DNA of 64,000 bases from Promethearchaeia archaeon (GTDB taxonomy: Archaea; Asgardarchaeota; Lokiarchaeia; Sigyniarchaeales; SOKP01): positions 1 to 64,000 of the forward strand of contig JAHQWG010000039.1 of the NCBI GenBank assembly GCA_029856045.1, given 5' to 3'. Position 1 is the first letter of the stretch, and each line of letters opens with the position of its first letter. The notes under the pieces were generated by a model. The model made no database searches, had not been told where the DNA came from, and worked only from the letters and a program-made list of their open reading frames with translations. Shown here one piece after another: positions 16,148-51,769 of the stretch. A program made the translations under genes and the position numbers.

Positions 16148-16198
16148 AAAAATTCATTTTTTATATAAATTTTTAAAAGGTTTTAGAGAGGCGATAAA

Positions 16199-17254
16199 TT
16201 AACGAGCGTTATTGTACCTTCTTATGCTTACTCTTATATTAAAATGAGTCTTTTAAAACAACTAATTATTGATGATAAATCTTTGCAGAAATTAGAAGAA
16301 ATCAGTAATATTGAAGAATTTATTGAATTTATTAGTCCTTATTATCCTAATTTAAGCATCAAAGAATATACAATCGAAAAAATTGAGCAGGCTCTCTACC
16401 ATATTTATTTTAAGTTAGTTGGAAAAATTATGCAATATTCACCCCCAAATATGAGGAGTATTTTAAGAGATTATTTATTGAAATATGAAATAATGAATAT
16501 TAAGCAAATTATTCTAGGTTCAATTTTAGGTATGAGTATTGAAGAGAAAAAAAAAAATGTTAATTATTTAATTGAAGAATATTTAGAAAATGTAGATTTT
16601 ATTGAAGATTTGATTAAAATTTCATCCTTAGATGAGATTCAGTTATTTATGAAGCAAACTAGATATAATAAAGCTGTTAGAGAAGGTATTCTTTACTTTA
16701 AGAAAAATAATGAAATATTTGTCTTAGAAGCTTTCTTAGATCAATTATACTATAAAAATCTAATTAAAAAGAAACATACTTTCAATAAAAAAGAAAATGT
16801 AATGATTAATTTATTTGTGGATTATGTATCCGAGATATACAACTTAAATATAATATATCGGGGAATTAAAAATAAAATTGATAAAAAATTATTAGCCCAA
16901 TTTCTTTTAAATAATTATTTATTTTTAAACGCTTATAATATTAATTATTTATTATATCTTGATGATGTAAATGATTTTATTTCAGTAATTTATAATTATT
17001 TTAAAAAAAATAAGGAAATAAGTCCTTTTTTTAGGATATTCGGTCTTAATGAAAAGCATATTTTATTATCACTCGAAAAATTATTTCAAAAATATTATTT
17101 TAAAAAATTTCAAGTAAAGATTGATGATATTGATTTTTTAACAATATATAAAATCTTAGAATTGGTAATAAAAAAAGAAAATGAAATACGATTTATTATT
17201 ATACCAAAAGTAGTTAAAATCACTCACGAAAAATTTAGAAATTTAAAATCGTAA
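16199..17254 (+). CDS. atpC: A/V-type ATPase subunit C (V0 d-like); start uncertain (TTA 16199 or ATG 16244)
   Basis: Operon position; N-terminal PSYAYSYIK lies upstream of the first ATG; KYEIMNIK, EAFLDQLYY, EIYNLNIIYRG. Confidence 0.8.
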   Translation, partial: LTSVIVPSYAYSYIKMSLLKQLIIDDKSLQKLEEISNIEEFIEFISPYYPNLSIKEYTIEKIEQALYHIYFKLVGKIMQYSPPNMRSILRDYLLKYEIMNIKQIILGSILGMSIEEKKKNVNYLIEEYLENVDFIEDLIKISSLDEIQLFMKQTRYNKAVREGILYFKKNNEIFVLEAFLDQLYYKNLIKKKHTFNKKENVMINLFVDYVSEIYNLNIIYRGIKNKIDKKLLAQFLLNNYLFLNAYNINYLLYLDDVNDFISVIYNYFKKNKEISPFFRIFGLNEKHILLSLEKLFQKYYFKKFQVKIDDIDFLTIYKILELVIKKENEIRFIIIPKVVKITHEKFRNLKS

Positions 17255-47508: not shown

Positions 47509-48417
47509 TTGAGAAAAATGATTGAAGATTATATAAAAGCTGGAAAGGCGACTAAAAGCGCAAAAAAGTTAGCACGGGAACTCACCAAACCTGGGACTCC
47601 ATTTATTGAAATTTGCGATAAATGTGAAGAAGAAATAATTGAAAATGGAGCAGAATTGGCGTTTCCTTTAAATATTTCATTAAATGAAATTGCAGCTCAC
47701 TATAGTTCTCCAATTGATGATCAGAGTGTAGTACCTGAGGAAGGTTTATTAAAATTAGACTTTGGAGCGCATGTTAATGGATATATCGCTGATACAGCCA
47801 TCACAATTAATTTAAACCAAGATAAAAAATTTGATACATTTGTTACAGCTGCAGAAGAAGCATTAGATGCAGCAATTGAAAACTTTCGACCCGGTGTTAA
47901 ATTATTTGAGATAGGAGAAAAAATTTCAGAGAAGATCATTAAACATGGATTAAAACCGATAATGAACCTTGGAGGACACAGATTATTACAATATACTTTG
48001 CATGCAGGGGAATTTGTTCCTAATTTCAAAGATAAAACTTATAATCAAGAAATTAATATTGGGGATGCATATGCAATTGAACCATTTACCACAAACGGGT
48101 TTGGACGTGTAAAAGATGGAAAAAGTAGTTATATTTATAGATTTCATAAAGATATCAAAAAAAATATACCATATGAACTAAGAACTGCAATAAGCCAAAT
48201 TAAAAAAAATTTTTCTACACTTCCATTTAGCCCCCGAGCGGTTTTAAACAAAAATTTATTTCCAAAAAAAAAAATAATGCCAATTATAAATCGCTTAGCT
48301 GGTAAAGGAGCTCTTCAACATTATCCAATTCTTGTCGAAGTAAGAAATGGATTTGTCGCACAAGCAGAGCATACGGTTGTGGTCAAAGAAAATGAAACAA
48401 TAATAACCACTAAGTAA
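47509..48417 (+). CDS. map: methionine aminopeptidase type II
   Basis: AFP.NIS.NEIAAHYS, DFGAHVNGYIADTA, NLGGH, AIEPF, AQAEHT. Confidence 0.95.
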   Translation: MRKMIEDYIKAGKATKSAKKLARELTKPGTPFIEICDKCEEEIIENGAELAFPLNISLNEIAAHYSSPIDDQSVVPEEGLLKLDFGAHVNGYIADTAITINLNQDKKFDTFVTAAEEALDAAIENFRPGVKLFEIGEKISEKIIKHGLKPIMNLGGHRLLQYTLHAGEFVPNFKDKTYNQEINIGDAYAIEPFTTNGFGRVKDGKSSYIYRFHKDIKKNIPYELRTAISQIKKNFSTLPFSPRAVLNKNLFPKKKIMPIINRLAGKGALQHYPILVEVRNGFVAQAEHTVVVKENETIITTK

Positions 48418-48424
48418 AGAAAAT

Positions 48425-49291
48425 TTGAAAGAAAAAGTGAAAAATTATAATAAGTTATCTTTAATTATTCTCTGTGCAGGAGAAGGAAAAAGAATTCAAA
48501 AATTCTTTCCAAAAATTCCCAAATCTTTAATAAAAATAAAAAAACTCGATAAATCAATAGTAGAATATACTATAACGCAATTTTTAAATCTAAATTTTAA
48601 TAAAATTTATCTTATCTATGGATATAAAGCGAATATTTTTATTAACTATATTAAAGATTTGGAATCAAAAAATAAAATTGAAAACTTTCACTTAAATAAT
48701 TCAATTTTTCCTGTAAATGCGGAAAAGAATTACAAAAAAGGACCATTTCATTCATTTTTGGAGATTTTAAACGAACCTAATTTTATTTTCGATGATAATT
48801 TCTTCTTATTAATTCCAGGAGATACACTATTTGAAAATGAATTACTTAATACAATACTTGGATGCATTAAAGAAAAAATAAGGGAGAATGCTAATATGCC
48901 AATTATTTTTTATCGTGAATTTGATAAAAATTTAATAGAAATATATAAATTGAAAAAATGTTATTCTATTTCTGCTGTAAATATTTTAAAGCAAAAGAAT
49001 CATGAATTCTTAAAATCTATAGAAAAGATTGATATTAAATCCAAGAAATTAGAGGAACCTATTTTTCAAATGATTCCAGTTTATTTCTTCCCTTCTAAAT
49101 TTTTAAAAGAAATAAGAGATTCGATTGATATTAATCTAGGTGACTACTCAAATTTAAGGGAATTCATCAATAGCCTTTATTTAAAAGAAAAAAAAATTCT
49201 TACCTGCAAAATAAATAAATCTTTAAATTTTTTTGAAGTAGATACAATAGAAGATTTACAGTTTTTAGAAGCACATTATAAAGTAAAATGA
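48425..49291 (+). CDS. nucleotidyltransferase family protein (NTP_transferase)
   Basis: IILCAGEGKR...PKSLI, PGD, FEVDT.EDL. Confidence 0.75.
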   Translation: MKEKVKNYNKLSLIILCAGEGKRIQKFFPKIPKSLIKIKKLDKSIVEYTITQFLNLNFNKIYLIYGYKANIFINYIKDLESKNKIENFHLNNSIFPVNAEKNYKKGPFHSFLEILNEPNFIFDDNFFLLIPGDTLFENELLNTILGCIKEKIRENANMPIIFYREFDKNLIEIYKLKKCYSISAVNILKQKNHEFLKSIEKIDIKSKKLEEPIFQMIPVYFFPSKFLKEIRDSIDINLGDYSNLREFINSLYLKEKKILTCKINKSLNFFEVDTIEDLQFLEAHYKVK

Positions 49292-49301
49292 TTTGAAGAT
49301 T

Positions 49302-49311
49302 AAAAAAAAAA
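49302..49311 (-). terminator. oligo(T)10 terminator immediately 3' of the candidate ncRNA (minus strand)
   Basis: A10 on plus = U10 directly after the closing helix (...UAUCCCCC-U10). Confidence 0.55.
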
Positions 49312-49314
49312 GGG

Positions 49315-49946
49315 GGATAATAGTAGTTTTGCATTAGCAAACTTCAGAATCATTTGAATCCTCTTTTTTTTGATAAATTTTTAATTGAAATAGCGGAAAT
49401 TTTGGAAGATTCTAATTCATTTATCATTCTGGGATCTTGGGATATATCAAGATTATATATCTGAGATTTTTTTTCAAGTAGAACTTGTATTTTATAATTT
49501 CAGAGAAGTCAGTATTATGATTCTCTGTGTCAGAGTTTGGCAAACATTGCATATTATAATAATTGAAAACTAATTTTCACCGAATTTAACCATTATACAG
49601 TGAATCGAGAGCTTATACGATTAATATCTCAATATTTGATTCTTTGTAGCCGATTTTTATTTTAAAGAGAGGTTTTTTGATGGCTTTAGGTTTATTTGAA
49701 CGGAAACTAATTTTCTAATTACTTATCTTACTACCCATGAATCAATTAATTATATCAGAGAAGAACTTATTTGGTTCTCTGTATTATAGTTTGTTTAAGA
49801 AAGACTTTTTATTGATAGAACTTATGATTTAATTGAATAAAAGCCTAGTTTTTGAATTAATTTTTAACGAATTTAATGCAATAACTTTCTAAGGTTCCAG
49901 AAATTTTGTTAGAATATCAAACCAATGCAAACGGATACTATTATCC
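49315..49946 (-). ncRNA. candidate large (~630 nt) structured non-coding RNA of unrecognised family
   Basis: No ORF of 60 aa or more; 5' GGAUAAUAGUA pairs with 3' UACUAUUAUCC, followed by UUUGCAUUGGU/GCUAAUGCAAA with G.U pairs; many internal hairpins; upstream TATA box and downstream U-tract. Confidence 0.6.
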
Positions 49947-49969
49947 AAAATGATATAAGAAAATTCACA

Positions 49970-49977
49970 TTTATAAA
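49970..49977 (-). promoter_or_regulatory. TATA box (TTTATAAA) for the candidate ncRNA
   Basis: Lies 24-31 nt upstream of the 5' G (49946) of the closing helix, which is typical archaeal spacing. Confidence 0.5.
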
Positions 49978-50021
49978 TATTTAGAAAATATTTTAATAAG
50001 GTCTTATTATATTAAATCCAT

Positions 50022-50423
50022 ATGAGTGATAATTCTGATAAAATAACAATTAACATAAATATTATTGACTGTGGAACAATTAAAGCAACTTTTTATAGAC
50101 ATTTAAGTCCTTTTTCAGTTACGGAAATTTTAGAAAAATTACCACTTATTATTAGGGGGAGATTTAATTTTATAGGTTCGAAGACTCATTGGATGCTTCC
50201 TCAAATAGGTATATCAGTGGGTCCTGACTCCAAGGCAACGCTAACGGTTGAGAAAGGAGACATTGTTTATTGCCCCCAGACTGACAGTATTTATATCTTT
50301 GTAGAGAATGATAATCTTACAACAAAGATGAATAAAATGGGGAAAATTAATAATATAGAGGATTTAAATTTATTTTCTAATGCAAAGAATGGAACTAATA
50401 CCGAATTAAAATTAAGTAATTAA
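50022..50423 (+). CDS. cyclophilin-like fold protein (TM1367-like)
   Basis: SP..V..ILEKLP, VEKGDIVYCPQTDSIYIF, NKMG. Confidence 0.65.
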   Translation: MSDNSDKITININIIDCGTIKATFYRHLSPFSVTEILEKLPLIIRGRFNFIGSKTHWMLPQIGISVGPDSKATLTVEKGDIVYCPQTDSIYIFVENDNLTTKMNKMGKINNIEDLNLFSNAKNGTNTELKLSN

Positions 50424-50431
50424 ATGTTGAT

Positions 50432-51238
50432 TTATTCTTCTTTCTTTTGCCGATCTTCCAAATATCGAGTCCAATCGAAACCAAATATAAACATCATAAT
50501 TGTTATTGTAAGAATAAGCATAATACCTTCAATTATCACATCTTGAATTGGAGTTAATTCTGCACCAATCCCTAAAAGTCCTAGTCTCACCAATACTGGC
50601 CAAGTGCAATAGAACAAAGTCGTAAAAGTCTTCCCAATCCATCCAGGCAATAATGCCTTGTACCATTTATAATGAAGCAAACCAAGCGGAATATATAATA
50701 AATCATCTGGGGCAGGAGTAAGGGCAAATAGGAAAATGTATAGGGGAGTTCGTTTATCATTTTCTAAAACCAATTTTCCAAACCCACTTAAATTCTTCAT
50801 ACTTTTGGAACTTGAAACATCTATTAATTTCCCAGCCCCATATCCAGCGATATAGCCAGCTAACTCTCCAATAACACAACCTAATCCCCCAAATACAACA
50901 AAACCCATAATTTCCATCCAAAAATTACTATTAGCTAATATTTCTTCAAATAATAATCCCTGATTTCCGTATTTCATTAATAATGAATTTGATAATGTAA
51001 ATAAAATGAATGGAAAAGGAATTGGGAAGCCAATGCTTGCTGATCCAATCAAACAAACTAAAAAAGCAATAAATAAACCCCAGAAATAATTAGTATCTTC
51101 TGTTAGGACCACAAAAGAAGAGCGCACTGATATTACAAAGTCTTGGAATTCAGGAAAAACAAAAAAACACAAAAGATAAGCCAAAACTATCACATAAAAA
51201 AATATAAAAACATTTAATAATCGCTTGGATAGGGTCAT
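50432..51238 (-). CDS. DedA/VTT (SNARE-associated) family membrane protein
   Basis: FPIPFP, GELAGYIAG, FLFALTPAPDDL.YIPLG, GWIGK. Confidence 0.8.
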   Translation of the reverse strand: MTLSKRLLNVFIFFYVIVLAYLLCFFVFPEFQDFVISVRSSFVVLTEDTNYFWGLFIAFLVCLIGSASIGFPIPFPFILFTLSNSLLMKYGNQGLLFEEILANSNFWMEIMGFVVFGGLGCVIGELAGYIAGYGAGKLIDVSSSKSMKNLSGFGKLVLENDKRTPLYIFLFALTPAPDDLLYIPLGLLHYKWYKALLPGWIGKTFTTLFYCTWPVLVRLGLLGIGAELTPIQDVIIEGIMLILTITIMMFIFGFDWTRYLEDRQKKEE

Positions 51239-51382: not shown

Positions 51383-51769
51383 TCATTTTGTAGATAATTC
51401 GATTTCAATTCTAGATATAATATCTTTATTGTTTTTGTTGTTTTTGTTGTTTTTATTGTTTTTGTTGTAATTTTCGCCTCTCATTCGAGAATCCCGGTTT
51501 TTCCCATAATTCCCATAATTCCCATAATTCCCATAATTACCATAATTACCATAATTATTATTACGAGAACTTATAGATATATTGCTAATATCGATTCCTG
51601 GATACATTCTTCTTTTTAGATCAACAGCGGTTTCGACAGCAGTTGCAATCTCGTCTCCTTCTCCTTTAATTAAAATAGTTCTTGTCCCGGAAGTGAATGC
51701 AAATATACCATCTGTCGTGTATTTGCCTTTGTCCCGTCGATTTCTTACGGTGATAACCTTGGGATTCAT
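51383..51769 (-). CDS. divergent Alba-family nucleic-acid-binding protein with low-complexity insertion
   Basis: ILIKGEG..IATAVETAV.L..R..P.I.I.NI.I and C-terminal ISRIEIEL match the Alba topology. Confidence 0.7.
   Translation of the reverse strand: MNPKVITVRNRRDKGKYTTDGIFAFTSGTRTILIKGEGDEIATAVETAVDLKRRMYPGIDISNISISSRNNNYGNYGNYGNYGNYGNYGKNRDSRMRGENYNKNNKNNKNNKNNKDIISRIEIELSTK
51425..51466. repeat. 9-bp coding repeat, (NNK)4+
   Basis: ttt[a/g]ttgtt units. Confidence 0.85.
51503..51556. repeat. 9-bp coding repeat, (NYG)6
   Basis: [c/a]ccataatt x6. Confidence 0.9.

What the first reader, a model, noticed from the sequence alone, without database searches (positions are those of the whole stretch)
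49315..49946. Candidate undescribed ~630-nt structured ncRNA with its own promoter and terminator
Seen: the largest gap in the window without a called gene (730 bp). On the minus strand the two ends pair: GGAUAAUAGUA/UACUAUUAUCC (11 bp perfect), then UUUGCAUUGGU/GCUAAUGCAAA (11 bp with 2 G.U). Internal helices also use G.U on this strand (AGGCUUUUAUU/AAUAAAAAGUCU, UUUCUGG/UUAGAAA, GAAUCUUC/GAGGAUUC), which indicates selection at the RNA level and fixes the orientation. A TTTATAAA box lies 24-31 nt upstream of the first G and a U10 tract follows the last helix. It lacks the RNase P P4 motifs, the SRP helix-8 motif and tRNA-like ends. Inference: a stand-alone large RNA gene of a class I do not recognise, sitting in a core translation/proteostasis neighbourhood. 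This is the best candidate for a new system in this window.
Basis: partly seen in the sequence, partly recalled or inferred. Interest (0 to 1): 0.88.

Follow-up and report, generated by a model that had tools for sequence, protein, structure and literature searches.

The report
New large RNA gene in Lokiarchaeia
The gene-free gap holds a previously undescribed, folded non-coding RNA gene (632 nt here, 350-790 nt in relatives) that almost every genome of one large family of Asgard archaea keeps in single copy at the same spot, so it probably has a core job, but that job and its expression are not shown here.

Summary
Confirmed and extended. Window 49315-49946 (-) is one member of a non-coding RNA gene family of a Lokiarchaeia family (GTDB SOKP01, inferred). 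It is found in 84 of 89 genomes that are at least 90% complete, normally once, and in all 13 genera.

Conserved features: a TATA box at about -31 to -24; a 10-bp stem joining the two ends, with compensatory changes (131 non-redundant copies: 1220 Watson-Crick, 27 G-U and 2 A-C pairs, which fixes the strand); a near-invariant CAWUGG just after the 5' arm; usually an internal U-rich stretch; a long 3' hairpin; and a terminal U-tract. The interior drifts about as fast as synonymous sites and varies twofold in length.

There is no Rfam match. RNase P, SRP, 16S, 23S and a permuted 5S lie elsewhere in the genome. No reverse transcriptase or Ro60 was found, and no Orc1/Cdc6 gene lies on this contig. 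It was not detected outside this family.

Best guess (inferred): a Y-RNA-like scaffold whose closing stem docks a protein, with U-rich parts bound by Sm-like proteins. Transcription was not shown, because the read-mapping call was lost. An earlier scan note reports the same family.

The parts
49315..49946 (-). Non-coding RNA gene, predicted primary transcript (632 nt to the end of the closing stem)
   Evidence: longest ORF inside is 42 aa and no internal ORF is on record as a gene
49970..49977 (-). Archaeal TATA box at -31 to -24; consensus in relatives AAGATTTAAATA (BRE plus TATA)
   Evidence: box positions are among the invariant columns of 48 diverse homologues
49936..49946 (-). P1 5' arm (family consensus GGACAAUAG)
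49315..49325 (-). P1 3' arm (family consensus CUAUUGUCC); compensatory changes at pairs 1-4 and 6-10
49922..49928 (-). Near-invariant motif GCAUUGG (core CAWUGG in 126 of 131), usually a few to about 13 nt after the 5' arm
49328..49338 (-). 3' strand of P2; in this genus it pairs with 49921-49931 and covers the motif
   Evidence: no consistent partner in most other genera
49347..49418 (-). 3' hairpin domain; in the main clade the equivalent long hairpin abuts P1
49501..49793 (-). Genus-specific repeated modules: three 22-nt copies (49772-49793, 49637-49658, 49518-49539) and two identical 12-mers (49704-49715, 49567-49578) that pair with each other in the predicted fold
49302..49311 (-). U10 tract, predicted aCPSF1-type terminator and oligo-U tail
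   Evidence: mechanism from PMC8716108
48425..49291 (+). Convergent nucleotidyltransferase-family gene (positional neighbour, not obligatory)
   Evidence: Pfam NTP_transf_3; missing between map and the RNA in genera g5 and g7
50022..50423 (+). Divergent cyclophilin-like gene (positional neighbour, not obligatory)
   Evidence: Pfam Cyclophil_like2, weak; not adjacent in genus g4, which keeps the RNA

Best explanation
Shown by comparison (about 90% sure): a vertically inherited, single-copy, stand-alone RNA gene of one Lokiarchaeia family, with its own TATA promoter and U-tract end, whose 5' and 3' ends pair in a sequence-conserved 10-bp stem. Inferred mechanism (about 35%): it works like a Y RNA, as a scaffold or tether. 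The closing stem is conserved in sequence well beyond what pairing needs, so it docks a core protein. The 3' oligo-U tail and the internal U-rich stretch are bound by Sm-like (SmAP/Lsm) rings. The CAWUGG hexamer beside the stem is the recognition element for a protein or RNA partner. The fast-evolving interior hairpins are exchangeable spacer or accessory modules. The neighbouring genes mark its position and are not its partners.
For: Present in 84 of 89 family genomes at least 90% complete, one copy each except two, and in all 13 genera. P1 pairs in 96-100% of 79 copies at each of positions 1-10, with several independent double changes. P1 has 27 G-U against 2 A-C pairs. In a 24-sequence alignment 79.8% of cells pair, against 40-49% for slid registers; 24 pairs have two-sided changes; 0 of 500 shuffles are as high. 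U6 or longer at nt 80-125 in 76% of copies against 6% in shuffles. Three Lsm genes in the genome. Length 352-790 nt. Whole-element identity within the genus is 86-91% against 89-90% at fourfold sites. It survives loss of either neighbour.
Against: No transcript, protein partner or target was shown. Ro60/TROVE was not found in this genome. This genus lacks the internal U-tract and buries the motif in an 11-bp helix. Three natural copies (L048, L053, L103) have lost the motif region. The structure was derived from the same sequences, which favours it over the slid controls. Mutual-information analysis of the interior was dominated by phylogeny.
Confidence: 0.35

Rival explanations
1. A sponge or decoy RNA, like CsrB/RsmZ or CrcZ, that titrates an RNA-binding protein through repeated hairpin modules; P1 only stabilises it.
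For: Repeated modules in this genus and repeated YGAGAC-type motifs in the main clade; length varies twofold; independent promoter and terminator.
Against: The repeated motif differs between genera. The strictly conserved parts (P1 sequence, CAWUGG) occur once per RNA.
Confidence: 0.22
2. A tRNA-end-binding RNA: UGG(U/A) pairs with the NCCA end of tRNAs, as in T-box antiterminators or the RNase P L15 loop, sensing or sequestering uncharged tRNA.
For: UGG is kept in 126 of 131 copies and is mostly followed by U or A. The neighbourhood has genes whose ORFs look like peptidyl-tRNA hydrolase, TruD and AspRS, plus methionine aminopeptidase (only the last was tested against Pfam).
Against: CA before UGG is even more conserved and is not explained. 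Variants CGG, AGG and UGU exist. No T-box or elbow-binding motif was found. The motif is paired in this genus.
Confidence: 0.12
3. A transcription regulator like 6S or 7SK RNA that binds RNA polymerase or an elongation factor through its closed ends.
For: Closed-end architecture; core single-copy distribution.
Against: No conserved central bubble; no Rfam similarity; restricted to one family although the polymerase is universal.
Confidence: 0.1
4. A diverged, expanded or circularly permuted version of a known housekeeping RNA (RNase P/MRP paralogue, SRP, 5S, tmRNA, intron-containing tRNA, C/D or H/ACA guide).
For: This lineage does permute its 5S gene. Ends that pair and a 3' hairpin stacked on P1 recall 5S and tRNA.
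Against: RNase P, SRP, 16S, 23S and 5S are all found elsewhere. No Rfam match in 21 loci. No box C, terminal ACA or K-turn excess. GC is 29%, against about 50-64% around the tRNA T-arms scanned. No bulge-helix-bulge was seen at P1 (inspection).
Confidence: 0.06
5. A DNA element (replication origin with ORB-like boxes, domesticated MITE, or factor-binding site) rather than an RNA.
For: Terminal inverted repeat; AT-rich; some short palindromes resemble ORB boxes.
Against: Two-sided changes between arms 350-800 bp apart and strand-specific G-U; a TATA box at a fixed distance and a U-tract on one strand only; single copy; no Orc1/Cdc6 gene on this contig; the ORB-like words vary as hairpin arms.
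Confidence: 0.05

Closest known systems
Y RNAs (Ro60 RNP; bacterial Yrn/YrlA), from my own knowledge
   Same: 5' and 3' ends form a conserved stem; variable interior; oligo-U tail; stand-alone gene.
   Different: Y RNAs are much shorter. P1 here lacks the Ro-binding bulged-C helix. No TROVE protein was found in the genome.
Large bacterial ncRNAs OLE, GOLLD, ROOL (PMC12286853, PMC12054373; abstracts)
   Same: Size class of several hundred nt; stand-alone; function not evident from sequence.
   Different: OLE is described as highly conserved and complex throughout; here only the ends and a hexamer are conserved family-wide. No Rfam match. Archaeal host.
Archaeal RNase P RNA (RF00373) and RNase MRP RNA
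   Same: P1 closes the molecule; 300-600 nt; own promoter.
   Different: No match to either model; RNase P RNA is at C27:158767-159094.
Sm-class snRNAs and yeast telomerase RNA TLC1, from my own knowledge
   Same: Short conserved 5' motif plus an internal A-U(n) stretch in most copies; TLC1 also has a fast-evolving scaffold interior.
   Different: The U-tract is absent in this genus. No target, no reverse transcriptase and no matching tandem repeats were found.
CsrB/CrcZ sponge RNAs, from my own knowledge
   Same: About 350-400 nt, poorly conserved interior, repeated modules.
   Different: No family-wide repeated binding word; a sequence-conserved end-to-end stem.

Membership tests
Any Rfam 15 family | Covariance-model score at the gathering threshold | tested here: not met
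   Best 23 bits against a threshold of 62 for the window; two chance-level hits in 20 homologous loci
RNase P / MRP RNA | Conserved core (CR-I/CR-V, P4 pseudoknot) as scored by the Rfam models | tested here: not met
   No hit at E up to 10 or 5; the genome's RNase P RNA lies on C27
SRP RNA | Helix 8 motif and S domain | tested here: not met
   SRP RNA at C27:163914-164235
5S rRNA (expanded or permuted) | Loops C and E and helices I-V; no other 5S in the genome | tested here: not met
   A complete permuted 5S gene is on C49
tRNA / tmRNA | Acceptor stem plus T-arm; tag reading frame | tested here: not met
   ARAGORN finds nothing on C41 and no tmRNA in the genome; median longest sense ORF 20 aa
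C/D or H/ACA guide RNA | Box C, K-turn, ACA three nt from the end, rRNA complementarity | tested here: not met
   Box C in 1 of 131, terminal ACA in 0, K-turns at shuffle level; no exact rRNA complement of the motif
Y RNA | Ro60/TROVE partner in the genome | tested here: not met
   PF05731 not found in G000 (100% complete by markers, 55 contigs)
Y RNA | Ends paired in a conserved stem with an oligo-U tail | tested here: met
Telomerase / retron / DRT RNA | Cognate reverse transcriptase and product repeats | tested here: not met
   RVT_1 not found; no tandem motif arrays
Sm-class RNP RNA | Single-stranded Sm-like U-tract | tested here: inconclusive
   76% of copies against 6% in shuffles, but absent in this genus
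Sm-class RNP RNA | Bound by an Sm/Lsm ring | not testable with these tools
   Three Lsm genes are present; binding needs an experiment
MITE / IS end | Many copies at unrelated sites | tested here: not met
   One copy at an orthologous site
Archaeal replication origin | Adjacent orc1/cdc6 gene | tested here: not met
   The three full-length orc1/cdc6 genes are on C27 and C8; origin activity itself was not tested
Expressed ncRNA gene | Discrete transcript with mapped ends | not tested

The most novel reading that the evidence does not exclude
An Asgard archaeal Sm-class guide RNP: a stand-alone RNA loaded with an Sm-like ring on an internal U-tract, whose 5' CAWUGG pairs with a substrate RNA in trans, an archaeal counterpart of the snRNP design.
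Probability: 0.1. Interest if true: 0.95.

Novelty: categorically new. Interest (0 to 1): 0.72.

Why it matters
Beyond rRNA, RNase P and SRP, I know of no large core RNA described for Asgard archaea, and eight literature searches found no description of this one. A single-copy gene kept in about 94% of genomes of the largest sampled Lokiarchaeia family suggests an unrecognised housekeeping ribonucleoprotein in relatives of eukaryotes. It gives a concrete handle on what RNAs Asgard Sm-like proteins bind.

Tried and rejected
Expression. Nine public runs, eight on record as RNA (salt marsh metatranscriptomes), hold 6-23% of the sampled words of 48400-50500, of which the element is 30%. The words are therefore not located and I do not count them as evidence. 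Look-ups of three internal ORFs found no contigs. The shortest metagenome contig hit was 1046 bp, so none marked transcript ends.

Missing-5S idea: rejected once the permuted 5S gene was found.

Replaced tRNA-Arg(CCU): one such gene lies near the syntenic site in G021, but G000 has its own on C51.

Homologues outside the family: the 5'-end model gave only weak hits in 26 genomes of six other Lokiarchaeia families, and those inspected were coding or lacked the element. The syntenic gaps after the NTP-transferase gene lack it. A loose pattern over the phylum was uninformative. Hits in bacterial genomes and viral contigs lacked the full element. Absence is only 'not detected with these motifs'.

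rRNA target of the motif: no exact complement, and only four G-U-tolerant matches, no more than chance.

Two-state switch through an internal copy of the 5' arm: weak (score 6.1 against 5.7 in shuffles) and positionally fixed only in the main clade.

U-tract in a hairpin loop: clear in some genera, weak overall (11.8 against 10.3).

Mutual information: confounded by phylogeny. Structure-aware MAFFT did not run. One preprint on non-coding RNA mining could not be opened; another does not mention Asgard or Loki.

Full report
Observation. The gap between the nucleotidyltransferase gene (ends 49291) and the cyclophilin-like gene (starts 50022) is 730 bp, and no ORF inside the element exceeds 42 aa. 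On the minus strand the ends pair perfectly over 11 bp, followed by a second 11-bp helix with two G-U pairs. A TATA box lies at -31 to -24 and a U10 tract follows three C after the stem. The fold is better than shuffles on both strands (z -3.7 minus, -2.7 plus), so energy alone does not prove much. Rfam gives nothing near threshold. The element is single-copy in the genome.

Relatives. A DNA search found full-length copies in three congeners (86-91%) and 5'-end matches in another genus at the same gene position. I then took the DNA next to the cyclophilin-like gene from about 90 genomes of the family and found the same layout in 12 genera: BRE and TATA, a 5' arm, the motif, 350-790 nt, the 3' arm, a U-tract. 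A model of the 5' end found it in the thirteenth genus, which was not in the training set and where the cyclophilin-like gene has moved away. In two other genera the nucleotidyltransferase gene is missing from the site. So the RNA is tied to neither neighbour. Across 89 family genomes at least 90% complete, 84 have it, normally once. Four of the five misses also lack the neighbouring gene in the assembly, and the fifth is a variant without the motif. Record titles name these genomes Promethearchaeota, including WGS project SOKP01, Loki_b31 and the AMARA bins. I infer GTDB family SOKP01 from this and from my own knowledge. Two closed genomes whose sizes match the cultured MK-D1 and L. ossiferum (own knowledge) belong to another family, where I could not detect it.

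Evidence for selection on an RNA. In 79 copies each of the first ten pairs of the closing stem is kept in 96-100%, with independent two-sided changes at several positions. One subclade shifts the register and extends the stem into the U-tract. Over 131 non-redundant copies the stem has 1220 Watson-Crick, 27 G-U, 2 A-C and 1 other pair; a DNA inverted repeat or the opposite strand would not give that bias. In the main clade a structure of P1, three internal helices and a long 3' hairpin abutting P1 pairs in 79.8% of cells, against 40-49% for slid registers, with 24 pairs changed on both sides and 0 of 500 shuffles as high. That structure came from the same sequences, so this test leans in its favour; P1 is the firm part.

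What is conserved and what is not. Family-wide: the promoter, the sequence of P1, the hexamer CAWUGG (126 of 131) and the terminal U-tract. A U-tract ends archaeal transcripts through aCPSF1, and the Lokiarchaeum orthologue works this way (PMC8716108). Common but not universal: a run of six or more U at nt 80-125 (76% against 6%), absent in this genus. Not conserved: the interior, which is about as divergent as fourfold sites within the genus and aligns at under 50% between genera. The window's copy is long, with repeated modules. In this genus the hexamer is buried in the second helix; in most genera it has no consistent partner. Three natural copies have lost the hexamer region but keep promoter, stem, 3' domain and terminator.

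What it is not. RNase P RNA, SRP RNA, 16S and 23S are on contig C27. The 5S gene seemed missing, which made an expanded 5S a serious candidate, but a complete circularly permuted 5S gene lies on C49. Twenty homologous loci gave no Rfam family. There is no excess of box C, ACA or K-turn motifs and no coding frame. No exact rRNA complement of the hexamer, no reverse transcriptase, no Ro60 and no orc1/cdc6 on this contig were found. Eight literature searches found no description.

Mechanism. Shown: a conserved RNA gene with a selected end-to-end stem. Inferred: a stem whose sequence hardly varies, although any pairs would close it, is most simply a protein-binding site. A variable interior between fixed ends with an oligo-U tail is the design of Y RNAs. 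U-rich single strands are the known ligand of Sm-like proteins (own knowledge), three of which are encoded here. I therefore favour a scaffold RNP at about 35%, with a sponge (22%), a tRNA-CCA-binding RNA (12%), a polymerase regulator (10%), a disguised known RNA (6%) and a DNA element (5%) as rivals; the rest is unassigned. No partner or target was shown.

Expression. Not shown here. An earlier AI note on another genome of the family calls the RNA very highly expressed. I confirmed its family and position claims independently, not its expression claim.

Verdict. A real, undescribed RNA gene family that fits no tested class. Interest 0.72: a specialist would notice a core large RNA in Asgard archaea, but it is confined to one family, lacks a function, and was seen once before in this scan.

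Noticed in passing
L192:1400-1580 (G000 C49, about 16190-16330, +); also L204-L206, L209-L212, L202, L203, L207: The 5S rRNA gene is circularly permuted: 3' half first, helix I capped by a tetraloop, with an outer stem and (in G000) a bulge-helix-bulge-like junction that would rejoin it. Family f3 and G244 have the normal order. Reported many times earlier in this scan.
   Followed up: partly
L071 (G041:C87, upstream of the cyclophilin-like gene): A second copy in G041 has the promoter, 5' arm and motif but stops about 120 nt in, at the internal U-tract, with no 3' arm found: a natural truncation, contamination or assembly join.
   Followed up: partly
L046:2013-2806 and L048:2031-2386: Longest (790 nt) and shortest (352 nt) members; L048, L053 and L103 lack the CAWUGG region.
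   Followed up: partly
L176 (G021, about 300 bp after the nucleotidyltransferase gene, opposite strand): A tRNA-Arg(CCU) gene sits near the syntenic position in the MK-D1-sized genome; not seen in the other f3 loci inspected.
   Followed up: partly
   Followed up: partly
window 51383-51769 (-): Alba-domain protein with a low-complexity tail of NYG and NNK repeats, 1.4 kb from the RNA gene.
   Followed up: no
L178 (G012, after the nucleotidyltransferase gene): A tandem array of a 21-nt unit running into an assembly gap.
   Followed up: no
L156 (G006 C1, about 428400-429030, -): A 770-bp gene-free gap with a TATA box and two long hairpins with C/U-rich loops; not a homologue by my tests.
   Followed up: no
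G026:C8:322795-322920: Partial second copy of the cyclophilin-like gene 2.3 kb downstream of the first, suggesting an insertion with a duplicated end.
   Followed up: no
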